DNA of 10,615 bases from a virus (taxonomy: Duplodnaviria; Heunggongvirae; Uroviricota; Caudoviricetes): IMG/VR virus record IMGVR_UViG_3300028991_000014, positions 1 to 10,615 of that record. One strand, given 5' to 3'. The notes beneath the pieces are model-generated. The model saw only the letters and a list, made by a program, of their open reading frames with translations, had not been told where the DNA came from and did not search any database. Within the stretch, counting starts at the first letter, position 1; the number at the start of each line of letters is the position of its first letter. Of this stretch, positions 334 to 10,615 are shown one piece after another. The position numbers and the translations under genes were made by a program.

Positions 334-389
334 AAAACGATCGGTGCGATTGCTGATTTCCTTATGAAAAACGGTTGAGTTTTTGCCGC

Positions 390-427
390 GTCCTGGAGTT
401 CCTTACTTAACCCCAGGACTTTTTTTT
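390..427 (+). terminator. terminator-like hairpin plus T8 abutting the capsid start codon (possible regulated terminator or attenuator)
   Basis: Stem GTCCTGG (390-396) / CCAGGAC (413-419) with an inner GTT/AAC extension, followed by TTTTTTTT (420-427) and then ATG at 428. Confidence 0.3.
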
Positions 428-1585
428 ATGCCGAGAATAATCGAATTACGCCAGCAGAAAACCGCCATTAAAAATCAGATGCGCGACATGCTGGAGAACG
501 CGGAAAAAGAAAACCGCAGCCTTAACGATGCAGAGGGCGCAAAATTTGACGAATTACGCGCTAAAGCTGAATCCCTCGATAAAGACATTTCCCGCCTTGA
601 AGCCATTGCAGACGAAGAGCGCAGCAAGCCAGGTAAAAGCAGCCAGACCACTGACCCGGCAGAACTCCGCAACTACATCCTGACAGGTGAAACCCGCGCA
701 TTAAGTACAGGTGTCCCCGCTGATGGTGGTTATACCGTTATCCCTGAACTGAACACCGAAATCATGCGAATGCTGGCGGATGAGTCCACCATGCGCCGCA
801 TCTGTACCGTGAAAAAAATCAGCAGCAACGAGTTTAAGCAGCTTGTTTCCGCTGGCGGTGCGGTCGTTAACCACGGTGAAGAGGGTAAGGCACGCGAACA
901 GACCAGCACCCCGCAGATTAACGAGGTGAGCATTAAGCTGTATCCGGTCTATGCGTACCCGCGCACCACACAGGAAATCGTGGATTTTTCCGATGTGGAC
1001 ATCCTTTCATGGCTGACGGGCGAGATTGGCGACACCTTCACGGAAACCGAAGAAAGTGATCTGGTTGTGGGCGACGGTGACAAAAAAGCAAAAGGTTTTT
1101 TATCCGTACCCCGTGCAGAGAAGAACGACAAAGAACGTGATTTCGGAACGTTGCAGGTTATCAAGCCCGTTGATGATCTTGCCTGGACATCTGCGGACCC
1201 GCTGATCGATCTGAAATTTGCATTACGTAAAAAATACCGCAAGAACGCGGTATGGGTGGTTAACTCCACGACGGCGGCAAAACTCCAGAAGGTGAAGAAT
1301 GCGAACGGGGATTATATATGGCGTGACCGTTTACAGGCGGGTGATCCTGACACATTGCTGGGCCTTCCGGTCGAATATCTGGAGTTTATGCCGGATAACG
1401 TTATTGCCCTGGGCGACTTTAAACGCGGTTACTACATCGTTGATCACGAAACAGGTGTTCGCACCAGACCGGACAACCTGACAGAACCAGGATTCATCAA
1501 AATTTTCACGCAAAAATATTTAGGCGGTGGCGTGGTGGATTCGAACGCGATCAAGATTCTGGAACTGCCACAGGACGACGATTAA
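428..1585 (+). CDS. phage major capsid protein, HK97 family
   Basis: 385-aa product with a charged, coiled-coil-like N-terminal segment (delta-domain-like) followed by a capsid-type body; sits at the head of a protease/portal gene set. The ORF track begins at TTG 383; ATG 428 is chosen as start, but there is no clear SD so the start is uncertain. Confidence 0.8.
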   Translation: MPRIIELRQQKTAIKNQMRDMLENAEKENRSLNDAEGAKFDELRAKAESLDKDISRLEAIADEERSKPGKSSQTTDPAELRNYILTGETRALSTGVPADGGYTVIPELNTEIMRMLADESTMRRICTVKKISSNEFKQLVSAGGAVVNHGEEGKAREQTSTPQINEVSIKLYPVYAYPRTTQEIVDFSDVDILSWLTGEIGDTFTETEESDLVVGDGDKKAKGFLSVPRAEKNDKERDFGTLQVIKPVDDLAWTSADPLIDLKFALRKKYRKNAVWVVNSTTAAKLQKVKNANGDYIWRDRLQAGDPDTLLGLPVEYLEFMPDNVIALGDFKRGYYIVDHETGVRTRPDNLTEPGFIKIFTQKYLGGGVVDSNAIKILELPQDDD

Positions 1586-1595
1586 CAGCATACAG

Positions 1596-1620
1596 AAGGG
1601 GCTAAAAAGCCCCTTTAGTG
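1596..1620 (+). terminator. hairpin between capsid and protease genes (possible partial terminator or attenuator)
   Basis: Stem AAGGGGC (1596-1602) / GCCCCTT (1609-1615) with TAAAAA loop, followed by an interrupted T-run (TAGTGTTTTATG). Confidence 0.3.
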
Positions 1621-1640
1621 TTTTATGGGTGAAAAAAATT

Positions 1641-2198
1641 ATGAAGAGTATGGAAATCCGGTCATCGGAAATCACCACCAGCGCCAGCAACACGCTTACA
1701 GGCTACGTTGTTCGCTGGGATAACCTTTCGGAACTGTTATGGGGGGAGTTTTACGAAAAATTCCAGCGGGGGGCGTTTACTGAGTGGCTTGCGGCGGGTA
1801 ATGACGTTCGCGGCCTGTATGAGCATGACCACAGCATGTTACTGGGGCGCACCCGTTCTGGCACGCTGAAACTGGAAGAGGACGACACAGGGTTACGCTT
1901 TGAACTTACCCCACCGGATACCAGCACAGGGCGTGACGTTATCGAACTGGTTAAACGTGGTGATATATCCGGCATGAGCTTTGGCTTTCGTTCCCGTAAG
2001 GATGTATGGGATACCACAACAGATCCATGCGTGCGCACCGTGCTGGTGGCGGAACTGTACGAAATTACCGTTACATCCGTACCGGCTTACCCCGATTCCG
2101 GCGTGGAGCTGGCCCGCCGTTCCCTGTATGAGCAGCACCCCGAAAAAATGCCGCGTGCGGATAATCGCCGCTGGTGGGCGGATTTAGCGGGGGTGTGA
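1641..2198 (+). CDS. phage prohead (head maturation) protease, HK97 family
   Basis: Translation from ATG 1641 (MKSMEIRSSEITT...) has the HK97 prohead protease layout (LYEHDHS..., KRGDISGMSFGF, VPAYPDS). The 5' part of track ORF 1527 overlaps the capsid gene and is rejected. A GGTGA lies 9 nt upstream. Confidence 0.85.
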   Translation: MKSMEIRSSEITTSASNTLTGYVVRWDNLSELLWGEFYEKFQRGAFTEWLAAGNDVRGLYEHDHSMLLGRTRSGTLKLEEDDTGLRFELTPPDTSTGRDVIELVKRGDISGMSFGFRSRKDVWDTTTDPCVRTVLVAELYEITVTSVPAYPDSGVELARRSLYEQHPEKMPRADNRRWWADLAGV

Positions 2199-2199
2199 T

Positions 2200-3411
2200 A
2201 TGTGGCCTTTCAGAAGAAAAAAAGAGCAGCGCAGCATGACGCTTGATGAATTTATGGCGCTGGCTGGCACATCGAACACGGGGGCGGGTGAGTACGTATC
2301 ATCGGGGACAGCGGAATCACTCCCCGCCGTCATGAACGCCGTCACGGTCATATCTGAGGCGGTGGCTACTATGCCATGCTACCTGTACCTGGTACGCAAT
2401 GAGAAGGGGAAGGAGGCCCGCGAGTGGCTTGATTCTCATCCGGTCGATCATATCCTCAACGAGCGCCCGAACGCATGGCAAACCCCCTACCAGTTTAAGC
2501 GAATGATGATCCGCCACTGCCTGTTAAACGGTAATGCTTACGCGGTGATTCAGTGGGGGCGTGATGGTTTTCCGGCGGCTTTACATCCTTACCCGCCGCA
2601 GTCGGTGAACGTGGAGCAGACAGGAGAACACAACTGGCGCTATTGCATCACTGACGCCTACACCGGAAACACCCGCAACTATTTACCGTGGGAAGTACTT
2701 CACCTTCGTTACTCCACGGATGACGGCTTTATGGGGCGCTCACCTGTAACCATCTGCCGCGAATCGCTGGGGCTTGGGCTGGCCCAACAACGCCACGGCG
2801 CGAGCGTGATGCGTGATGGCATGATGGCAGCAGGGGTTATCACGTCAGGCGAATGGCTGGACGGCGTGAAGGGCAAACAGGCATTAGCCGCACTGGAACG
2901 CTATAAAGGGGCCAAAAACGCCGGAAAAACGCCCATCCTTGAAGGGGGCATGAGTTACCAGCAGCTGGGCATGAGTAACCAGGACGCCGAATGGCTGGCC
3001 TCCCGTCGCTTCACCATTGAAGACATCGCCCGAATGTTCAACGTCTCGCCGATTTTTCTGCAGGAATACAGCAACAGCACCTACAGCAATTTCAGCGAGG
3101 CAAGCCGCGCATTTCTCACCATGACGATGCGCCCGTGGCTGGCGAACTTTGAGCAGCAGATAAAAAACGCCTTGCTGGTGGTCTCGCCTGTACCTGGTAT
3201 CCGGTATCAGGTGGAGTTTGACAGCGCGGACCTGTTACGGGCCACACCTGGCGAACGCTTTGCCACCTATGAGCGAGGCATCAAATCCGGTGTTATGTGC
3301 CCGAACGAAGCCCGCGAACGAGAAGGGTTGTCTCCGCGTGATGGTGGTGATGAGTTCAGCCAGGCATGGAAACAGGAAGTAAAAATCAGCGAGGGAGAAA
3401 AACCGGAATGA
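2200..3411 (+). CDS. phage portal protein, HK97 family
   Basis: 403-aa product with portal hallmarks (ESLPAVMNAVTVISEAVATMP, LLNGNAYAVIQ, GGMSYQQLGMSNQDAEWL, IEDIARMFNVSP). GGGGG SD at 2189-2193; start is 1 nt after the protease stop. Confidence 0.9.
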   Translation: MWPFRRKKEQRSMTLDEFMALAGTSNTGAGEYVSSGTAESLPAVMNAVTVISEAVATMPCYLYLVRNEKGKEAREWLDSHPVDHILNERPNAWQTPYQFKRMMIRHCLLNGNAYAVIQWGRDGFPAALHPYPPQSVNVEQTGEHNWRYCITDAYTGNTRNYLPWEVLHLRYSTDDGFMGRSPVTICRESLGLGLAQQRHGASVMRDGMMAAGVITSGEWLDGVKGKQALAALERYKGAKNAGKTPILEGGMSYQQLGMSNQDAEWLASRRFTIEDIARMFNVSPIFLQEYSNSTYSNFSEASRAFLTMTMRPWLANFEQQIKNALLVVSPVPGIRYQVEFDSADLLRATPGERFATYERGIKSGVMCPNEAREREGLSPRDGGDEFSQAWKQEVKISEGEKPE

Positions 3412-3746
3412 ACATAGGGCGACTGCGTGACAGGGTAACGATTCAGACCCTGAAACAGACCAGAGCCATGACGGGCGAAATACTCGAAACGTGGGAGGAC
3501 GGTCACACACTCTGGGCAAGCGTGAACATGGTCAGCAGCAAGGAGGCCATTTCATCGGGTGCAGAGCTGGCGATTGGTACCGTAAGGATCTGGATACGGT
3601 ACCGGAAGGACATTAACGCCACCAGCCGGATAAAGGTCAATACGGGGCCGCTGGCGGGGCGTGTACTGAATATCATCGGGCAGCCGCTGCCGGATGCCGC
3701 CAGGACACGCCTTGAAATTCTTTGTCGTGAGGGCGCGGAAAAATGA
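3408..3746 (+). CDS. phage head-tail adaptor / head closure protein
   Basis: 112-aa product from ATG 3408 with motifs RVTIQ, TLWASV, RIWIRYRKDI, RLEILCRE typical of this family. Start overlaps the portal stop (ATGA); GAGGGAG SD at 3391-3397. Confidence 0.8.
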   Translation: MNIGRLRDRVTIQTLKQTRAMTGEILETWEDGHTLWASVNMVSSKEAISSGAELAIGTVRIWIRYRKDINATSRIKVNTGPLAGRVLNIIGQPLPDAARTRLEILCREGAEK

Positions 3747-4039
3747 CAGAAGAACTTATCACCCTGGAAGAAGTGAAACTCCATTGCCGCATCGATGGCG
3801 ACGAGGAAGACCAGTTAATCAGCGGATACATTGCCGCATCGCTTGAGGCGTGCCAGATACACATAGGCAGGCGCTTTGATGACGGGCTGGAGTTCACGCC
3901 AGCCATAAAGATTGGCTGCATGATGTTTATCGCTCACCTGTATGAGAATCGCCAGATTGTCGCGGATAACGCAAAAACACACGTACCCATGACGATTGGC
4001 GCACTCTGGACGGCTTACCGTGATGTGGGGGTGTACTGA
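3743..4039 (+). CDS. phage gp6-like head-tail connector protein
   Basis: 98-aa product MTEELITLEEVKLHCRIDGDEEDQLISGYIAAS... matches the gp6-like connector pattern. ATGA overlap with the adaptor stop. Confidence 0.8.
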   Translation: MTEELITLEEVKLHCRIDGDEEDQLISGYIAASLEACQIHIGRRFDDGLEFTPAIKIGCMMFIAHLYENRQIVADNAKTHVPMTIGALWTAYRDVGVY

Positions 4040-4479
4040 TGCCGTGGCAACCATTAAGACGATGTACAGAACCAGGCTGCAACAGGCGCGTGAAGTCCGG
4101 CAAGTGTGAGGAGCACAGACGCAGCGCACGCCAGCAGCAGGACAGCCGGAGAGGCAGCAGCAGGGAGCGAGGGTATACGAGGCAGTGGGAGAAATACCGC
4201 GCCATGTATCTGAGTAAAAACCCGTTATGTGCGCATTGCCTGGAAAAAGGAATATACAAGCCCGCCGTGGTGGTGGATCACATTATCCCAATCGATGGCG
4301 GTAATGATGTTCTCTTCTGGCCTGAGTGGAATCATCAGCCATTGTGCCAGGCGTGTCATAACCAGAAAACGAAATGGCTTGATCCGTCCACAAAAAACAA
4401 GCGTGCTGCGGGTGGATTCCGTGAGGAGGAAGAACGGGCCGCTAACCGCAATAACTGGATGTATGGCGCTGATGAATGA
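4039..4479 (+). CDS. HNH endonuclease (terminase-associated, cos-cleavage accessory type)
   Basis: HNH motif CAHC...VVDHIIPIDGGNDV...NHQPLCQACHNQKT; ATGA overlap with the connector stop; position immediately upstream of terS/terL is typical of HNH-dependent cos packaging. Confidence 0.85.
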   Translation: MPWQPLRRCTEPGCNRRVKSGKCEEHRRSARQQQDSRRGSSRERGYTRQWEKYRAMYLSKNPLCAHCLEKGIYKPAVVVDHIIPIDGGNDVLFWPEWNHQPLCQACHNQKTKWLDPSTKNKRAAGGFREEEERAANRNNWMYGADE

Positions 4480-4645
4480 GCGGGAACAAAACCGCCTTAT
4501 CCGTGGACTTATAAGGCAGCGTGACGCATGGAAGGCACAGGAAACAGGGCATAAAGATAAAGCATCAGGACGCGCAGAACGCATCACAGCGACGCGATTA
4601 AACGACCGTGACCGCGAGGTTATGGAATGTTTCCGCAATCGCTGA
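4472..4645 (+). CDS. hypothetical small basic protein (57 aa)
   Basis: ATG 4472 overlaps the HNH stop by 8 nt; translation MNEREQNRLIRGLIRQRDAWKAQ... is Arg/Lys-rich. It is the non-overlapping distal part of track ORF 4229-4645. No family recognised. Confidence 0.35.
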   Translation: MNEREQNRLIRGLIRQRDAWKAQETGHKDKASGRAERITATRLNDRDREVMECFRNR

Positions 4646-4768
4646 TGAGGCAGCCGGACGGGGTGGGGGGAGTTTTCAGGACGAACCCGACCCCGCCCAG
4701 AACCGACCGCCTCCCCAAATTTTTATGCACGGTAATTTTTTGAAAAATAATCTGGCGAAAAAATAAGC
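4646..4768. other. candidate cos (cohesive-end / terminase recognition) region
   Basis: Non-coding gap between the HNH region and terS with a G-run GGACGGGGTGGGGGGAG (4656-4672) followed by C-runs CCCGACCCCGCCC (4686-4698) and CGCCTCCCC (4708-4716). Position matches where HNH-dependent cos phages carry cos. Confidence 0.4.
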
Positions 4769-5125
4769 ATGGCAAGACCACCGAAAGCCCCCGCCTACCT
4801 GGATGATATCGCCGTGAAGCAGTGGCGGGAAAAATCGCGGCAGCTTGCGGAACGGGGAGACCTGACCCCTGCCGACTGGAGTAATCTGGAACTGTATTGC
4901 GTCAATTACTCGATATACCGGAAAGCCGTCGCAGACCTTGCGGCGCGCGGGTTCAGCATTGTTAACAGTCAGGGCGGAGAGAGCAGAAACCCCGCATTAA
5001 GCGCGAAATCCGACGCGGAAAGAGTGATGATAAAAATGGCCTCTTTGCTCGGTTTTGACCCGATAAGCCGCCGTAAAAATCCACCGGAAACAGAAGAAGA
5101 GGACGAGCTTGACCGCCTGGAATAA
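4769..5125 (+). CDS. phage terminase small subunit, P27 family
   Basis: 118-aa product MARPPKAPAYLDD...LELYCVNYSIYRKAV...GGESRNPAL...LLGFDPISRRK fits the P27-family TerS pattern; immediately upstream of and overlapping the large terminase gene. Confidence 0.85.
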   Translation: MARPPKAPAYLDDIAVKQWREKSRQLAERGDLTPADWSNLELYCVNYSIYRKAVADLAARGFSIVNSQGGESRNPALSAKSDAERVMIKMASLLGFDPISRRKNPPETEEEDELDRLE

Positions 5126-6770
5126 GTACGCAGAAGACGTAAAAACGGGCAAGATTCCGGCCTGTAAACGGCTGAAACAGGCCGTTAAACGATACTTTTC
5201 GGACCTTGAAAACCCCCTTTACATGTTCGATCGTGAGGTTGTTGAGCGGTTTATTGCCTTTTCCAGGGTGTGCCCGCACGTAAAAGGGCCGATGCGTGGA
5301 AGACCCATTGAGCTGGAACCGTGGCAGCAGTTTGCCTTTGCGTGCATCCTCGGCTTTAAGGTTAAGGCCACCGGAAGGCGCAAATACACGAGCGCCTTTA
5401 TCGAAGTGCCGCGCAAAAATGCGAAATCCACGACAGCCGCGATTCTGGCTAACTGGTTTCTGATTATGGAGAACGGGCAGCAGGATATTTACACCGCAGC
5501 GGTGAGCCGCGACCAGGCGCGGATCGTTTTTGATGATGCGCGTCAGATGTGCCTTTTATCCCGACCGTTACGCAAGAGAGTGAATATTCAGGCCCACAAG
5601 GTGATGCACCCGAAAAGCAACAGCCTGTTAAAGCCGCTGGCAGCAAAAGCGGCAACCATCGAGGGCACAAACCCAAGCCTTTCCATCGTGGACGAATACC
5701 ACCTACACCCCGATAACGGCGTTTATTCCGCGCTTGAGCTGGGGATGGGCGCACGTCCCGAAGGGCTGTTATTTGCCATTACCACATCGGGCAGTAACGT
5801 CGTTTCAGCCTGTAAACAGCACTATGATTATTGCTGCCAGATCCTGGACGGCGAAGAGGTCAACGATTCAATTTTTGTGCTGATTTACGAGCTGGACGAC
5901 GAAAACGAGGTTGATGATCCGGCGATGTGGATAAAGGCTAACCCTAACATCGATGTTTCCGTGGATCGTGAAAAACTGGCCTCAACCATCCAGAAAGCGC
6001 GGGGTATTCCGTCGCAATGGGTGGAGATGATGACAAAGCGATTTAATATCTGGTGCCAGGGGGCTACCCCGTGGATGGGTAACGGCGCATGGGCTGAGTG
6101 TGCCGGAACGTTCACGGAGGAAGATTTACACGGGCAGGAGTGTTACGCGGGGCTGGACTTATCATCAACCAGCGATATTTCCAGCGTGTGCTATGCCTTT
6201 CCGGTTGGTAAAACCATTATGCTGATTTCCCGTCATTATCTGCCGGAGTTCCAGCTACAGAACCCCGCCAATAAAAACCGCGCTGTCTATCGCCAGTGGG
6301 CTAAAGCGGGCTGGATACGCACAACGCCAGGTGACTGCATTGATTACGACCGGATCAGAGATGACATCATGCAGGATGCGGAGAAATTTAATATCAGGCT
6401 GGTGGGCTTTGATACGTGGAACGCCACGCACCTGAGAACGCAATTACAGGGGGCTGGTTTTGAGGTGGAGCCGTTCCCGCAAACCTACCTCAGATTCAGT
6501 CCGGCGGCGAAATCGTTCGAAGTTTTTGTTAACCGCAGGGTGATTGTGCATCGTGGCGATCCGGTGTTGTCCTGGTCGATGAGTAACGTCGTGATGCAGA
6601 GTGACGCGAACGCCAATATCAAGCCGAACAAGAAAAAATCACCGAACAAGATAGACCCGAGCGTAGCGGCGCTGATGGCGTTTGGTACATTCCAGGCAGA
6701 GCATGAGGATTTTGCTTTTGATATAAGCGACAGCCACCGCCAGAAACTGGAAGAATTTAGCGGGGTGTAA
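5109..6770 (+). CDS. phage terminase large subunit
   Basis: 553-aa product with an ATPase Walker A-like segment (EVPRKNAKSTTAA), DEYH Walker B-like motif and a C-terminal nuclease-type domain. Apparent TTG start at 5109 with AGAGGA SD 5 nt upstream; overlaps the terS 3' end. The first in-frame ATG would remove the conserved N-terminus. Confidence 0.9.
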   Translation: MTAWNKYAEDVKTGKIPACKRLKQAVKRYFSDLENPLYMFDREVVERFIAFSRVCPHVKGPMRGRPIELEPWQQFAFACILGFKVKATGRRKYTSAFIEVPRKNAKSTTAAILANWFLIMENGQQDIYTAAVSRDQARIVFDDARQMCLLSRPLRKRVNIQAHKVMHPKSNSLLKPLAAKAATIEGTNPSLSIVDEYHLHPDNGVYSALELGMGARPEGLLFAITTSGSNVVSACKQHYDYCCQILDGEEVNDSIFVLIYELDDENEVDDPAMWIKANPNIDVSVDREKLASTIQKARGIPSQWVEMMTKRFNIWCQGATPWMGNGAWAECAGTFTEEDLHGQECYAGLDLSSTSDISSVCYAFPVGKTIMLISRHYLPEFQLQNPANKNRAVYRQWAKAGWIRTTPGDCIDYDRIRDDIMQDAEKFNIRLVGFDTWNATHLRTQLQGAGFEVEPFPQTYLRFSPAAKSFEVFVNRRVIVHRGDPVLSWSMSNVVMQSDANANIKPNKKKSPNKIDPSVAALMAFGTFQAEHEDFAFDISDSHRQKLEEFSGV

Positions 6771-6783
6771 TGAGGTCAGCAGC

Positions 6784-7065
6784 ATGACAGAAGCCGAAAT
6801 ACTGCGATTAATCCGCCGCGTCTCTGGAATCAGCCAGCAGCATGACGAACAGGCCACGCAGCCGGACAGCGTGACCGCCGAAAATTATGCGCGTGTTGTT
6901 GCTGAGGTGATGCGCCGTGATGGTATCCAGCTTAATGATGTGGATATGCGCAACATACGGATCCGCGTTCTTGAAATGCTGGCCTACCGTCGCCGCGTGC
7001 AGACGTACAGGGAAAAAGCAAAAATTACGTACCACTGGAAGAAGCCGGAGCGGTTACGGCGGTAA
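6784..7065 (+). CDS. hypothetical protein (93 aa), last gene of the element
   Basis: ORF with GAGG SD about 8 nt upstream of ATG 6784; basic C-terminus (KKPERLRR); no recognisable family. Its stop abuts the first copy of a 28-bp direct repeat. Confidence 0.45.
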   Translation: MTEAEILRLIRRVSGISQQHDEQATQPDSVTAENYARVVAEVMRRDGIQLNDVDMRNIRIRVLEMLAYRRRVQTYREKAKITYHWKKPERLRR

Positions 7066-7098: not shown

Positions 7099-7111
7099 TT
7101 GGCTGGTGGGT

Positions 7112-7131
7112 GAGTTGCAGATCTGCAACTC
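7112..7131. repeat. perfect 20-bp palindrome GAGTTGCAGATCTGCAACTC
   Basis: Exact self-complementarity read directly from the sequence. It lies between the two direct-repeat copies, together with further hairpins at 7203-7225 (8-bp stem CGATACCC/GGGTATCG) and 7263-7276 (GGCGGAATTCCGCC). Confidence 0.8.
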
Positions 7132-7289
7132 GACCATGAAATTACGGAAAATACCCGTAGTTTGGGTAGTAAGAGTAACACCCAGATTTTGGGGCTTACT
7201 CGCGATACCCAAATAAAGGGTATCGGTGGAAGAAATATCGTTTCTCATATGTGAGTACCGAGGGCGGAATTCCGCCTTCGGTTACTCGC

Positions 7290-7317
7290 TGAACTTAAAG
7301 CAAAGCGCAAAATTGCG
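7290..7317. repeat. 28-bp direct repeat, copy 2
   Basis: Identical to 7071-7098. Confidence 0.8.
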
Positions 7318-7644
7318 CTGATTACTGGTTGGAATTGTTCCAGAGTGCAAATTTACACTATGGCCTAACCCGTTGATATTTCCGGCAACCTCAATTTGAG
7401 GAGGCAGGGAACATCCCCTAAATCCGGTGATGTATTCGGCCCCTTTAACGGGTATTACGATAATCATAACACCTACCGAACAGGTAAAGGCCACCAGCCT
7501 GATTAACGTTTAACCGGAAAAAAAGCCAGGTATCCAATCTCGATATGTGGATCCCCATATCGACAGCAATGCCCCCTTAAAATTATCCGCCTTTATATTT
7601 CTTGTGCCTATTTGTTCCACGTTGTTTCATACAGTGCGCCGAAC

Positions 7645-7668
7645 GGTGTAGTCACTGGTGTAGTCATT
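7645..7668. repeat. tandem 12-bp direct repeats GGTGTAGTCACT / GGTGTAGTCATT near the element end
   Basis: Two adjacent near-identical units about 75 bp from the junction with tqsA. Candidate recombinase arm-type or regulator binding sites (inference). Confidence 0.5.
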
Positions 7669-7712
7669 TTGCGATTTTTGGCACTTTTTGTGGTGCAAAT
7701 TATTTAATTAAA

Positions 7713-7877
7713 TCAATGTGTTAAGTGAAATAAGTTATATATAACAGCAATAAATAATGCGAGAATAAACGGCACGATGATCTCGGCGGCAAAACGGATA
7801 CCGCAGAGAATAATGACCAGCATTCCCAACATAATGACGATTTTTAGGCCATTGAGCGTGATGATCGGCTTTGCCAT
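7713..7877 (-). pseudogene. tqsA: tqsA (ydgG) 5' fragment truncated by the element insertion
   Basis: Minus-strand translation from ATG 7877 gives [46 protein letters not shown], which matches the TqsA N-terminus as recalled. The frame then diverges into AT-rich element DNA (YNLFHLTH, stop at 7713-7715). Divergent from mdtJ as in E. coli. Confidence 0.7.
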
Positions 7878-8288
7878 GCTTGTCCCCGTTTTTTCTTCCT
7901 TTGCTAATAATAATGTCTTTTTCGCTCCGTCATCATAACGAAAATCAAACCGCTCAGGTAAAGAAGTGAAAATATTTTGAGTTAATTCTTAAGCTATGAT
8001 ACAAATCAGGCGTGTTCAACTACCGAGGACAATTATCATCCGCGATGACGAGAAGCAACACTGCGGATAATTGTAATATTATGGACAATTTGTTCAGGAC
8101 GTTATTTTCAACATTTACCCATCTTCGTACCTCATCCACTATCTTGCTCGTAGGTGAGCAGCACTGGCGCAACGCGCTTTAGTCCTTTCTTCTGCCTAAG
8201 CTTGCCCTATGCGCGGGGCTTGACCACTTTACTTTGGTTTCGCTGAATTAAGCGAAAATTAAAATAATTCTCTTGCAGGAGAAGGACA

Positions 8289-8654
8289 ATGTATATTTAT
8301 TGGATTTTATTAGGCCTGGCTATTGCTACAGAAATTACCGGTACGCTGTCAATGAAATGGGCGAGCGTCAGTGAGGGAAATGGCGGCTTTATTTTAATGC
8401 TGGTGATGATTTCTCTGTCGTATATATTTCTCTCTTTCGCCGTTAAAAAGATCGCCTTAGGCGTAGCTTATGCGCTGTGGGAAGGTATCGGTATTTTATT
8501 TATTACCTTGTTTAGCGTTTTGTTATTCGACGAAAGTTTATCGCTGATGAAAATTGCCGGGTTAACCACCCTGGTCGCCGGGATTGTGTTGATCAAATCA
8601 GGTACCCGTAAAGCGCGTAAACCTGAACTGGAGGTGAACCATGGCGCAGTTTGA
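8289..8654 (+). CDS. mdtJ: spermidine export protein MdtJ (SMR family)
   Basis: 121-aa four-TM SMR-type protein matching E. coli MdtJ as recalled; GGAGAAGGA SD upstream; overlaps mdtI start. Confidence 0.95.
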
Positions 8655-8970
8655 ATGGGTTCACGCCGCCTGGCTGGCATTGGCAATCGTGCTGGAAATC
8701 GTTGCTAACGTCTTTTTGAAATTTTCTGACGGCTTTCGTCGCAAAATATTTGGCTTGCTCTCCCTGGCGGCGGTGCTGGCTGCCTTTAGTGCGCTTTCTC
8801 AGGCCGTAAAAGGGATCGACTTGTCTGTCGCTTATGCATTGTGGGGCGGGTTTGGTATTGCCGCCACGTTAGCCGCAGGTTGGATCTTGTTTGGTCAACG
8901 GTTAAATCGTAAAGGCTGGATTGGCCTGGTCTTGCTGTTGGCTGGAATGATCATGGTGAAACTTGCCTGA
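8641..8970 (+). CDS. mdtI: spermidine export protein MdtI (SMR family)
   Basis: 109-aa SMR-type protein ([32 protein letters not shown]...); GGAGGTG SD; 14-nt overlap with mdtJ, consistent with the mdtJI operon. Confidence 0.95.
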
Positions 8971-8976
8971 TGAAGA

Positions 8977-9017
8977 CGCTGCCCGCGCTGTCGGGCAGCG
9001 TTTGAACATTATTTTTG
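8977..9017 (+). terminator. hairpin terminator between convergent mdtI and ydgD
   Basis: Stem CGCTGCCCG (8977-8985) / CGGGCAGCG (8992-9000) with CGCTGT loop, followed by TTTGAACATTATTTTTG. Confidence 0.5.
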
Positions 9018-9830
9018 CGACAGTTGATCCAGCTTGTCGCGAAAACCGGTAACAGAAATGGCCCGGTTATCGGCGCGCCAGCGATCTTTCGCGGCAGGAG
9101 CCGAACTTTGCACCCCAATTAATTGCCAGCCGTCATCGGTATGCAACATCAGAGGCGAACCGCTGTCACCCGGCAAGGTATCGCACTGATGTGACATCAC
9201 CGACGTTTGCGCCCAGCCAGTCACTTCACAGTTTTGATGACTGTATAACGTATCGAGATGATCTTCAGGATATCCCGCCTGAGTCACTTTACGACCAGCC
9301 GATTTTAATGCGGCAGTAAGCGCGGCTTTATCTCCCTCAAATAACGGCAACGGTGTAATGCCAGAAGGGGGATTACGCAGCACAATCAAGCCGAAGTCCC
9401 ATGGTGCAGCTGCGGGAGGAACAATCCAACCATCCCCATCTGCTTTTAACCGCTTTCCCAGTGTCGGATCAACGCGGCCTTCTATGTCGTGGATCTCATA
9501 GCGCCAAAGACCTTTATTTGACACAAAACGCAGCGCCACTGCTTTATCGGCTTTACCCTTTGGAGGTGTCAATAAACAGTGTCCTGCCGTTAATGCCAGA
9601 TTGGGTGCAATCAGCGTCGCCGTACATAAATTGCCGCTGGCCGTTTCCAGTTGCCCAACCGCATCCCACGGTGATTGGGTCGTGTCATTCACTGGCACAC
9701 GATCATCATGACCAAAAAACAGGGTGCTGACCTCATCGTTTGCCGATTTGGCAACGTCTGGTTTATCTGCAAACACAAAAGCAGACGTCAAACTAATTGC
9801 ACCCAACACTACAGCAATGGTTGTACGCAT
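9009..9830 (-). CDS. ydgD: secreted trypsin-like serine protease YdgD (peptidase S1 family)
   Basis: 273-aa product with signal-peptide-like N-terminus and catalytic motifs TAGHCLL (His) and GDSGSPL (Ser); position between mdtI and asr as in E. coli. Confidence 0.9.
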
Positions 9831-9929
9831 ATCACACTCTGGTGGGTAATTATGATTATTAAAAGCAAACCCTCATAAATACTATAGACGGGACGGGATG
9901 AAAGTGGGAGTAAAATCAGATAACTACAG

Positions 9930-10013
9930 TCAGGAAAGATAAAAACGGGCGGCAATCAGTGCGCATAAAATAAGGATGATAAGAATGAACTCAAAGCGAT
10001 AACGGCCCACCAT
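9930..10013 (-). CDS. ydgU: small membrane protein YdgU (27 aa)
   Basis: Minus-strand ATG at 10013 preceded by GGAGGG SD; translation MVGRYRFEFILIILILCALIAARFYLS is hydrophobic and matches the short ydgU ORF known between asr and ydgD. Not in the supplied ORF track (too short). Confidence 0.65.
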   Translation of the reverse strand: MVGRYRFEFILIILILCALIAARFYLS

Positions 10014-10030
10014 ACTACCCTCCGCTAAAG

Positions 10031-10087
10031 GCGGTGCTAAACGTTACCCGCTTAGCACCGTAATTTTCAGGCGCGAGGGGGCGCGCC
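10031..10087 (-). terminator. hairpins in the asr 3' region (candidate asr terminator)
   Basis: Two GC-rich stems: GGTGCTAA (10033-10040) / TTAGCACC (10052-10059), and GGCGCG (10070-10075) / CGCGCC (10082-10087). The U-tract on the minus-strand transcript is weak, so the call is tentative. Confidence 0.3.
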
Positions 10088-10105
10088 AGCATTACTGTTG
10101 AAAAC

Positions 10106-10414
10106 TTACGCTGCGGGTTGTGCAGCAGGTTTTGCCGGTTGCTGATGGCTGTGTTTCCCGGCGTGTTTCTTCGCTGCCTGCGCTTTTTGTTCAGGGGCTT
10201 TCTGTTCAGCTTTCGTATTTTTATGATGCTTTTTAGCCGCCTGCGCTTTCTGGGCAGGTGCTGCTTTATGCTGTTTTTTATGATGTGTCGTTTTCGCCGG
10301 CGCTGCTTTGGTGGTCGTCGCAGTCGGAGCAGGTGTGGTCGCAGTCTCTGCAGCAAAGGCGGCAGAAGACAGACCCATAGCAGCGGCAACAACCAGAGCT
10401 AATACTTTTTTCAT
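10106..10414 (-). CDS. asr: acid shock protein Asr
   Basis: 102-aa product [23 protein letters not shown]... with signal peptide and Lys/Ala/His-rich repeats, matching E. coli Asr as recalled. Start chosen at ATG 10414 (GAGGG SD 7 nt upstream) rather than the track's 10441. Confidence 0.9.
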
Positions 10415-10615
10415 TGTCATACCCTCAATTTGTTTTTTCATTTAACCCCACTGCGGGGCCGTTGAAATAACTATATCCCTGGGAATGGCAGACTTCCGTG
10501 AGTGGTTGGTTTCAGCGTGTAACGATATGTACAAACGCTGGGTAATGACTCCAACTTATTGATAGTGTTTTATGTTCAGATAATGCCCGATGACTTTGTC
10601 ATGCAGCTCCACCGA
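10415..10615 (-). promoter_or_regulatory. asr upstream regulatory region
   Basis: Non-coding DNA 5' of asr on the minus strand. asr is known to be acid-induced via two-component regulators, but no specific binding sites were mapped here. Confidence 0.35.

What the first reader, a model, noticed from the sequence alone, without database searches (positions are those of the whole stretch)
4472..4645. Unassigned small basic ORF wedged between the HNH gene and the cos-like gap
A 57-codon ORF starts 8 nt before the HNH stop and ends exactly where the GC-skewed gap begins. The product is rich in Arg/Lys/Glu and has no family I can recognise. If real, its position next to cos and the terminase genes suggests a packaging accessory or DNA-binding factor, but it could equally be a spurious frame.
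Basis: inference. Interest (0 to 1): 0.35.

Follow-up and report, generated by a model that had tools for sequence, protein, structure and literature searches.

The report
Small conserved packaging-module gene of cf-PICI
The 57-codon frame is a real, conserved gene for a tiny basic helical protein that sits between the HNH nuclease gene and the cos site of a capsid-forming phage satellite (cf-PICI); it is almost certainly the "hypothetical gene 1792" whose knockout was already reported to cripple satellite transfer, but how it works is still unknown.

Summary
The ORF is there as described: ATG 4472, TGA 4643-4645, 57 codons, 8-nt overlap with the HNH gene. The window is the packaging module of a capsid-forming PICI, an EcCIEDL933 relative.

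It is a genuine gene.
- The frame is open in 25 of 25 distinct sequences from at least 12 enterobacterial genera.
- Length changes are in whole codons, and the ATGnnTGA overlap with the HNH stop is kept in 27 of 28 loci.
- The C-terminal motif RDRE[LV]MECFRNR is under strong protein-level selection (pN/pS 0.14 while pS is 0.59).

The family is PHROG 3173, function unknown. It is always found connector-HNH-small-gap-TerS-TerL and is never fused to another domain. AlphaFold2 gives helix-linker-helix; pI is about 11; there is no fold or sequence match to anything characterised.

Counting from "gene 1786 = capsid" places it as EcCIEDL933 "hypothetical gene 1792". That mutant replicated normally, its transfer was severely reduced, and it was complemented.

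Best reading: an HNH-coupled, non-essential accessory of the HNH/TerS/TerL cos-packaging machine. The molecular mechanism is inferred, not shown. It is already known as a gene, and moderately interesting as an uncharacterised satellite-specific packaging factor.

The parts
4472..4645 (+). Small ORF of 57 aa plus stop. Basic helix-linker-helix protein, PHROG 3173, probable ortholog of EcCIEDL933 gene 1792.
   Evidence: Translation. Frame and motif conservation. pN/pS. PHROG match E=7.9e-35. AlphaFold2 models. Numbering inference.
4463..4471 (+). Three extra in-frame codons (MAL) used by PGAP as the start. They exist only in the E. coli long subtype.
   Evidence: L001 9464-9646 corresponds to window 4463-4645. 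The 50-aa subtypes have no such upstream ATG.
4472..4479 (+). ATGAATGA overlap of the small-ORF start with the HNH stop. This is a translational-coupling arrangement.
   Evidence: The 8-nt overlap is kept in 27 of 28 loci and is 4 nt in one.
4039..4479 (+). HNH endonuclease gene (146 aa). It carries a conserved C-terminal tail (..FREEEERAANRNNWMY..) that is present only in elements that also have the small ORF.
   Evidence: Pfam PF01844. Tail sequences. Phage and Pasteurella homologues match only residues 1-115/120.
4646..4768 (.). Non-coding gap with conserved cos-like blocks: G-box 4660-4672 plus TTTTCAGGAC, a variable core, then about 4702-4750 (CCGCCTCCCCAAATTTTTATGCACGGTAATTTTTTGAAAAATAA).
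   Evidence: Alignments. The virion-derived record LR881103.1 ends inside this gap. No covariation for an RNA structure. No Rfam hit.
4769..5125 (+). Small terminase subunit, P27 family (Terminase_4).
5109..6770 (+). Large terminase subunit.
383..4039 (+). Upstream cf-PICI head genes: capsid, prohead protease, portal, head closure, head-tail connector.

Best explanation
The ORF encodes a roughly 6-7 kDa, strongly basic protein made of two amphipathic helices joined by a short basic, usually proline-containing linker. It is a fixed component of the packaging module of enterobacterial capsid-forming PICIs.

It is translated by coupling to the HNH nuclease gene, through a conserved 8-nt start/stop overlap. 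It is the last gene before the cos region.

I propose that it is a non-essential accessory subunit of the HNH-TerS-TerL cos-cleavage and packaging machine that raises the efficiency of satellite DNA packaging. The most likely way is by docking on the lineage-specific C-terminal tail of HNH and/or on terminase through its invariant C-terminal RDRE[LV]MECFRNR helix, while the basic linker contacts cos DNA.

Status of each step:
- **Shown:** it is a real protein-coding gene under purifying selection, strictly syntenic and satellite-restricted.
- **Inferred with high probability:** it is EcCIEDL933 gene 1792, whose loss severely lowers transfer without affecting replication.
- **Inferred only:** the partner and the biochemical step.
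For: **Coding.**
- The sense frame is open in 25 of 25 distinct sequences; the antisense frame is open in only 15 of 25.
- Indels are in whole codons.
- pN/pS is 0.14 in the last 14 codons with pS 0.59, and about 0.2-0.5 overall.
- 75 of 79 IMG/VR relatives are intact.

**Synteny.** All 17 genome loci from at least 12 genera, and the most distant metagenomic members, read connector-HNH-small-gap-TerS-TerL.

**Coupling.** The ATGnnTGA overlap is kept in 27 of 28 loci.

**Restricted family.** There are only 26 clusters among 1.84 billion representatives, all 46-89 aa apart from one 437-aa weak partial hit, and none is a fusion to another domain. In the phage collection only cf-PICI-derived records match.

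**Genetics.**
- Capsid is gene 1786. The EDL933 gene order then puts this ORF at 1792.
- The 1792 mutant replicated, its transfer was "severely affected", and the mutants were complemented.

**Structure and charge.** Helix 3-29, linker, helix 38-48 at pLDDT 84. pI is 10.5-11.2.

**HNH link.**
- The Pasteurella cf-PICI Pmp8 lacks both the small ORF and the roughly 28-aa HNH tail, yet keeps the cos-like gap.
- Pairwise divergence of the small protein tracks HNH best (rho 0.46, against 0.26 for TerS). This is weak evidence.
Against: - There is no direct evidence for any partner or for DNA binding.
- The identification with gene 1792 rests on assuming consecutive locus tags. The supplementary tables and figure that would confirm it are not held as text.
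- The correlation with HNH is confounded by physical linkage.
- The HNH-tail co-occurrence rests on essentially two lineages.
- 4 of 79 relatives carry premature stops, and Pasteurella elements do without the gene, so the function is dispensable.
- No similarity to any characterised packaging factor was found.
Confidence: 0.6

Rival explanations
1. It is a spurious frame. The region would be non-coding packaging-signal DNA, or a 3' extension of HNH, and its conservation would reflect DNA-level constraint from the adjacent cos site.
For: ORFs of this size are common by chance in the window. The ORF abuts a highly conserved non-coding cos-like region. The protein matches no Pfam or NCBIfam family.
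Against: Synonymous sites are nearly saturated (pS about 0.6) while the C-terminal 14 residues are almost invariant (pN 0.08). Indels come in multiples of three and the frame is open in 25 of 25 sequences. The 15 nt after the stop are variable, so the conserved cos blocks do not extend into the ORF. The published mutant was complemented, which implies a diffusible product.
Confidence: 0.02
2. It is a regulator of late gene expression rather than a packaging-machine subunit. One form would be an arginine-rich RNA- or DNA-binding peptide (lambda N-like) that lets transcription or translation proceed across the GC-rich, T-tailed gap into terS-terL.
For: The N-terminal helix is Arg-rich (..RLIRGLIRQRDAWKAQ..), and the gene lies immediately upstream of a G-box/C-box region followed by a T-run. 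The mutant phenotype is leaky and complementable. TerS has no obvious Shine-Dalgarno sequence in the window.
Against: The gap has no significant or covarying RNA structure: z = -1.1, and 0 compensatory pairs among 10. No terminator or promoter call lies in the gap on the + strand. The same gap is kept in Pasteurella elements that lack the protein. The most conserved part of the protein is the C-terminal helix, not the Arg-rich N-terminus.
Confidence: 0.15
3. It is an interference or specificity factor directed at the helper phage, of the Ppi or Rpp type. It would bind helper TerS, HNH or TerL to stop them acting on the satellite cos site, or redirect them to it.
For: Small satellite-specific proteins with such roles exist in other PICIs (introduction of 10.1101/2022.09.08.507074). 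The family is restricted to satellites.
Against: EcCIEDL933 does not reduce helper titres or plating. Helper transfer was unchanged in all packaging-module mutants. The satellite encodes its own TerS, TerL and HNH and does not need the helper's. The protein is not homologous to Ppi or Rpp in any library searched.
Confidence: 0.08
4. It is a capsid-internal or DNA-end-associated protein. It would be packaged with the DNA, or cap the right cohesive end, and would be needed for stability or injection rather than for cos cleavage.
For: It is very basic and small, and it is encoded at the extreme right end of the packaged genome. The mutant affects transfer but not replication.
Against: The text I could read gives no report of such a component in the cryo-EM and mass-spectrometry description of EcCIEDL933 particles, which names only the capsid gene product. 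Translational coupling to HNH points to a shared step with the nuclease.
Confidence: 0.07

Closest known systems
EcCIEDL933 'hypothetical gene 1792' (Alqurainy et al., bioRxiv 10.1101/2022.09.08.507074; cf-PICI prototype)
   Same: The position is the same: between hnh and terS, with an 8-nt overlap with hnh. The sequences share 54 of 57 identical residues. The flanking module is the same. The gene belongs to the module whose members were each knocked out.
   Different: The element in the window sits at another chromosomal site, next to a tqsA fragment and ydgV-mdtJI rather than between roxA and phoQ. The equation with '1792' is my inference from 'capsid = gene 1786', not a statement in the papers.
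PHROG phrog_3173 (unknown function)
   Same: Full-length HMM match, positions 1-57 of 57, E=7.9e-35. The 50-aa subtypes also match.
   Different: The PHROG entry carries no function or context. It gives no information beyond membership.
HNH accessory of cos terminases (HK97 gp74; Kala et al. 2014, as cited)
   Same: It acts in the same kind of HNH-dependent cos packaging system and is encoded next to cos. Like gp74 it would be an extra factor beyond TerS and TerL.
   Different: It is not a nuclease, has no HNH motif and has no homologue in HK97-type phages. Its knockout is leaky, whereas the hnh knockout abolishes transfer.
Bacillus phage phi105 ORF20 (phi105_51)
   Same: It is a positional analogue: an uncharacterised ORF that overlaps the 3' end of the HNH gene and is the last gene before the annotated cos site.
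   Different: It is 108 aa with two CxxC pairs and shows no sequence similarity. The analogy is in position only.
SaPI Ppi / PICI Rpp (satellite packaging-redirection proteins)
   Same: They are small satellite-encoded proteins that act on the packaging step.
   Different: They act on helper TerS and block the helper. EcCIEDL933 does not interfere with its helper. No homology was found.

Membership tests
Proteobacterial cf-PICI packaging module | Gene order capsid-protease-portal-head connectors followed by hnh-terS-terL on one strand | tested here: met
   Pfam assignments for window ORFs 383-6770. The same order holds in EDL933 and in 17 genome loci. The order is described.
Proteobacterial cf-PICI packaging module | No tail or lysis genes, and PICI-type integrase, regulation and primase modules upstream | tested here: met
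   In the 99.7%-identical locus L001 the upstream genes are Icd-like, DUF4222, primase, SSB and PerC. Downstream of terL there is only a 93-aa ORF and then host genes. The integrase lies outside the fetched stretch. The window itself begins at the capsid gene.
Orthologue of EcCIEDL933 gene 1792 | Same position and near-identical sequence to the EDL933 ORF between hnh and terS | tested here: met
   WP_000174068.1 at L008 22159-22341. There are three substitutions in 57 residues.
Orthologue of EcCIEDL933 gene 1792 | That ORF carries locus number 1792 in the annotation used by the authors | tested here: inconclusive
   Capsid is gene 1786. Protease, portal, closure, connector and HNH fill 1787-1791, so the small ORF is 1792. 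The 93-aa ORF after terL cannot be 1792 under consecutive numbering. The primer and strain tables are not held as text.
PHROG phrog_3173 | Significant full-length match to the family HMM | tested here: met
   E=7.9e-35, 120 bits, positions 1-57 of 57.
   No Pfam or NCBIfam hit. AlphaFold2 gives one long helix, or two helices with an 8-residue linker. Foldseek against the PDB returned 0 hits.
Lambda N-type arginine-rich antiterminators | A conserved RNA hairpin target (boxB-like) next to the gene | tested here: not met
   No covarying or significant structure in the downstream gap. No Rfam match.
Ppi/Rpp-type helper-packaging interference proteins | Binds helper TerS and reduces helper packaging | not testable with these tools
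   Only indirect evidence is available: EcCIEDL933 does not lower helper titres, and packaging-module mutants leave helper transfer unchanged.
Anti-phage defence proteins (PADLOC) | Match to a defence-system model | tested here: not met
   0 families at E<=1.

The most novel reading that the evidence does not exclude
The small protein would be a fourth, satellite-specific subunit of an HNH-dependent terminase. It would dock on the lineage-specific HNH tail and confer cos specificity or efficiency. The cf-PICI machinery would then cut only the satellite cos, and that would explain how satellite and helper packaging stay mutually exclusive.
Probability: 0.2. Interest if true: 0.6.

Novelty: already known. 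Interest (0 to 1): 0.35.

Why it matters
cf-PICIs are a recently recognised and widespread class of phage satellites that build their own capsids and package their own DNA. All other genes in their packaging module have textbook roles.

This small gene is the one universally conserved enterobacterial module member with no assigned role. It has a reported transfer defect when mutated.

Working out what it does would fill the last gap in the parts list of an HNH-dependent cos packaging machine. It could also explain satellite-versus-helper specificity.

For annotation, it shows that the conserved start is the ATG overlapping the HNH stop, and that the gene should not be discarded as a short hypothetical ORF.

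Tried and rejected
- **Family and structure searches, all negative.** Pfam, NCBIfam and PADLOC scans gave nothing for the small protein. A PDB sequence-profile search gave only chance hits at E>=0.1. Foldseek of the AlphaFold2 model against the PDB gave 0 hits.
- **Profile search for fusions or remote homologues.** An exhaustive search of 1.84 billion representatives, looking for a fusion to a larger domain, found only 26 clusters. All were small stand-alone proteins apart from one 437-aa weak partial hit.
- **Homologues in true phages.** Only cf-PICI-derived records in the phage collection match.
- **RNA explanations.** There was no Rfam family, no significant fold of the gap and no covariation. 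The promoter and terminator scan was not above shuffles.
- **Antisense ORF 4225-4638.** Its frame is broken in 10 of 25 relatives, so I rejected it.
- **HNH-small fusion by frameshifting.** The small frame is +1 relative to HNH and is open upstream for a variable 16-127 codons. The universally conserved ATG in an 8-nt overlap argues for separate initiation, so I did not adopt this reading.
- **Partner inference from distance correlations.** These gave only a weak signal, confounded by linkage.
- **Confirming the locus number.** The supplementary tables are not held, cluster names did not include EDL933 tags, and a text search for EDL933_1792 found nothing.

Full report
**1. The observation**

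Window 4472-4645 is an ATG-initiated frame of 57 codons plus TGA. Its product is MNEREQNRLIRGLIRQRDAWKAQETGHKDKASGRAERITATRLNDRDREVMECFRNR.

- The preceding gene (4039-4479) is an HNH endonuclease (Pfam PF01844). Its TGA lies at 4477-4479, so the two genes overlap by 8 nt (ATGAATGA).
- After the stop comes a 123-nt gap, and then a P27-family small terminase (4769-5125) and a large terminase (5109-6770).
- The gap starts G-rich and turns C-rich: GC skew is +0.26, then -0.41.
- The protein has 12 Arg and a pI of 10.7.

The description is therefore accurate. An ORF of this size is not significant on its own, because the window holds 81 ORFs of at least 40 aa. RefSeq/PGAP already annotates this frame as a 60-aa hypothetical protein starting at ATG 4463.

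**2. What the window is**

The gene order on the + strand is capsid, prohead protease, portal, head closure, head-tail connector, HNH, small ORF, gap, TerS, TerL. A 93-aa ORF and host genes follow. In a 99.7%-identical E. coli locus, a primase/SSB/PerC-type module lies upstream, and there are no tail or lysis genes.

[quoted passage not shown] The prototype EcCIEDL933 lies at NZ_CP008957.1 1,680,329-1,694,760 and has the same module. Its small ORF (WP_000174068.1) differs from the window's at three of 57 residues. About 534 of 5,426 complete E. coli genomes carry the region.

**3. Is the ORF a gene?**

Yes, on five lines of evidence.

- **Frame conservation.** I collected homologous regions from E. 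coli at 67-99% nucleotide identity. I added 17 species-representative genomes from Shigella, Enterobacter, Intestinirhabdus, Xenorhabdus, Phytobacter, Proteus, Kluyvera, Pluralibacter, Kosakonia and Klebsiella, plus metagenomic contigs holding the most distant family members. In every case an ORF of 46-58 codons starts at the ATG that overlaps the HNH stop and ends in ..RDRE[LV]MECFRNR(W). The single exception, in Kosakonia cowanii, has merely lost its stop codon.
- **Length differences.** Subtypes of 57/58, 50 and 46/47 aa differ by whole codons in the middle of the protein.
- **Open frames.** Of the six frames, only the sense frame is open in all 25 distinct sequences. The antisense frame that gives the 137-aa ORF 4225-4638 in the window is broken in 10 of 25.
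- **Substitution pattern.** This is the decisive test against DNA-level conservation from cos. In the last 14 codons pooled pS is 0.59 and pN is 0.083, a ratio of 0.14. The ratio is 0.58 for the N-terminal helix and 0.74 for the linker. Whole-gene dN/dS against the window is 0.2-0.5. The 15 nt after the stop codon are variable, so the conserved cos blocks do not reach into the ORF.
- **Integrity in relatives.** In 79 IMG/VR relatives, 75 copies are intact. Four have premature stops at codon 20 or 42, which fits a useful but dispensable gene in elements that often decay.

**4. The family**

- A word-indexed search with a six-sequence profile found 115 proteins. All are short, all are "hypothetical", and all come from Enterobacterales.
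- An exhaustive HMM search of 1.84 billion cluster representatives found only 26 clusters. All are 46-89 aa apart from one 437-aa protein that matched weakly over short partial stretches, and none is a fusion to another domain.
- The protein is a full-length member of PHROG phrog_3173, function unknown (E=7.9e-35).
- It has no Pfam, NCBIfam, PADLOC, PDB-sequence or Foldseek match.
- In the phage collection, the only matches are records that are themselves cf-PICI DNA: LR881103.1, PQ569648.1 and OR845787.1.

Invariant or near-invariant positions are M1, E3, L9, L13, R42, R46, R48, E49, E52, C53, F54, R55, N56 and R57. Distant members replace C53 with Ala and F54 with Met.

AlphaFold2 predicts a single long helix for the 57-aa form, with a low-confidence middle (pLDDT 78). 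For the common 50-aa form it predicts helix 3-29, linker 30-37 and helix 38-48 (pLDDT 84). All subtypes are strongly basic, with pI 10.5-11.2 and net charge +5 to +7.

**5. Context-derived clues**

- **Translational coupling.** The 8-nt overlap with the HNH stop is kept in 27 of 28 loci, and a 4-nt overlap is found in the other. The 50-aa subtypes also have a GAGG 7-10 nt upstream. This is the classic arrangement for coupled, roughly stoichiometric synthesis with HNH.
- **The cos-like gap.**
  - Its length is conserved at 119-130 nt, apart from one 173-nt case with an insertion.
  - Its blocks are nearly invariant across genera: GGGGTGGGGGAGG-TTTTCAGGAC, a variable core, then CACC.CC.GCCCCCTCAAATTTTTACGCACGG..ATTTTTTTGAAAATAA.
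  - The blocks show no covariation as RNA and no significant fold.
  - The virion-derived record LR881103.1 ends 37 nt after the small-ORF stop and begins 22 nt before terS. About 70 nt of the gap are missing from it, which fits physical DNA ends (cos) inside the gap.
  - The small ORF is therefore the last gene at the right end of the packaged genome.
- **Link to the HNH tail.**
  - Pasteurella cf-PICIs (Pmp8) keep a recognisably similar gap.
  - They lack the small ORF, and their HNH stops about 28 residues earlier.
  - Phage HNH homologues likewise match only residues 1-115/120.
  - The conserved enterobacterial HNH tail (..[FY]RE[QE]EE.AA.R[NT][ND]W[MI][YH]..) and the small ORF thus co-occur.
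- **Distance correlations.** Pairwise divergence of the small protein correlates best with HNH (Spearman 0.46). The values are 0.34 for connector, 0.32 for TerL and 0.26 for TerS. E. coli elements with an identical TerS (WP_000113647.1) carry different small-protein subtypes. These two points are weak and are confounded by linkage.

**6. Published genetics**

Alqurainy et al. mutated each gene of the EcCIEDL933 packaging module.

- Replication was unaffected.
- Complementation restored titres, and helper transfer was unchanged.

[quoted passage not shown] In EDL933 the genes after the capsid are protease, portal, head closure, connector, HNH, small ORF, TerS, TerL and a 93-aa ORF. With consecutive locus tags the small ORF is 1792. 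The 93-aa ORF would be 1795 and cannot be 1792.

I could not verify this in the figure or the primer table, because they are not held as text. It remains a well-constrained inference. EcCIEDL933 also does not inhibit its helper.

**7. Mechanism**

*Shown:* this is a real, satellite-restricted, HNH-coupled small basic helical protein encoded next to cos.

*Inferred with high probability:* its loss strongly reduces satellite transfer at a post-replication step, and it acts in trans.

*Inferred:* it is an accessory of the HNH/TerS/TerL cos-cleavage and packaging complex. My preferred model has three parts:
- The invariant C-terminal amphipathic helix binds a conserved partner, either terminase or the HNH core.
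- The N-terminal helix and the HNH tail co-evolve.
- The basic linker contacts cos DNA.

Rivals:
- **A regulator of terS-terL expression.** Not excluded, and weakened by the absence of a conserved RNA element and by Pasteurella elements that keep the gap without the protein.
- **A helper-directed interference factor.** Disfavoured by the lack of any helper phenotype.
- **A packaged or DNA-end protein.** No evidence either way.
- **A spurious ORF.** Refuted.

**8. Comparison with known systems, and verdict**

The closest known entity is the gene itself in the prototype cf-PICI (gene 1792) and its PHROG family. In function it resembles extra terminase cofactors such as the HNH protein gp74 of HK97-like phages, but it is not homologous to them. 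Phage phi105 has a non-homologous ORF (ORF20) in the same place, between HNH and cos. That hints that this slot may recurrently hold accessory factors.

The finding is real and correctly located. As a gene it is already known: it is annotated, catalogued and (by inference) knocked out. Its mechanism is not known. Interest is moderate.

Noticed in passing
window 4463-4474: PGAP starts the small gene at ATG 4463 (60 aa). The only start shared by all subtypes and genera is ATG 4472, which overlaps the HNH stop. In the window's subtype the GAGG found upstream of the start in other subtypes is replaced by TGGCG, so either start could be used here.
   Followed up: partly
window 4646-4768; L026 (LR881103.1) ends: The gap holds blocks that are nearly invariant from Escherichia to Proteus, and recognisable in Pasteurella. 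The virion-derived 16.5-kb record vB_KppS-Ant stops and starts inside the gap, with about 70 nt missing, which suggests the cohesive ends lie in the variable core between the G-box and the C-box.
   Followed up: partly
L031 (Pasteurella phage Pmp8, OR544139.1) 1501-1985: This Pasteurella cf-PICI has no small ORF, and its HNH lacks the roughly 28-aa C-terminal tail seen in enterobacterial elements. The HNH tail and the small ORF therefore co-occur.
   Followed up: partly
L009 (Shigella flexneri CP182556.1) 4175-4225: A deletion of about 100 nt between two CCCCGCC microhomologies removes the right half of the cos-like gap and the first 7 codons of terS. This is a decayed, presumably non-packageable element whose small ORF is still intact.
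   Followed up: partly
L021 (Kosakonia cowanii) 4001-4327: The stop codon of the small ORF is lost, and the frame reads through the cos-like gap to give 108 aa.
   Followed up: no
L023 (Klebsiella sp. WOUb02) 3781-5841: Only partial matches to HNH (73 aa), TerS (39 aa) and TerL, and no head genes upstream. This is a degraded element that still has an intact small ORF.
   Followed up: no
L044, L073, L083, L111 (IMG/VR): Four of 79 close relatives have premature stops in the small ORF, at codon 20 or codon 42. I did not check whether the rest of those elements is intact.
   Followed up: no
L032 (phage phi105 NC_004167.1) 1132-1458: ORF20 of phi105 (108 aa, two CxxC pairs, helical C-terminus) overlaps the end of the HNH gene and is the last gene before the annotated cos. 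It is a non-homologous positional analogue of the small ORF.
   Followed up: partly
window 6784-7065: The 93-aa ORF just after terL is PHROG phrog_1561 (unknown function). It is only weakly or partly matched in a few of the other genera. By the numbering argument it is not gene 1792, and I found no mention of it being tested.
   Followed up: partly
window ~7100-10615; L001 12565-14661: This island abuts a truncated tqsA (autoinducer-2 transporter) fragment, ydgV, mdtJI and ydgD. EcCIEDL933 lies between roxA and phoQ, so the two are closely related modules at different attachment sites.
   Followed up: no
L026 (LR881103.1) 2036-4333; L027 1-787: In some cf-PICI relatives a gene of about 765 aa follows terL, and it is annotated "tail length tape measure protein" in LR881103.1. 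That is odd for an element class defined by having no tail genes, and it may be a misannotation.
   Followed up: no
L008 (EDL933) 21735-22341: In RefSeq the EDL933 HNH gene and small ORF carry late-issued locus tags (RS29200, RS34035) in place of the expected RS08725 and RS08730. Their annotation has been revised over time.
   Followed up: no
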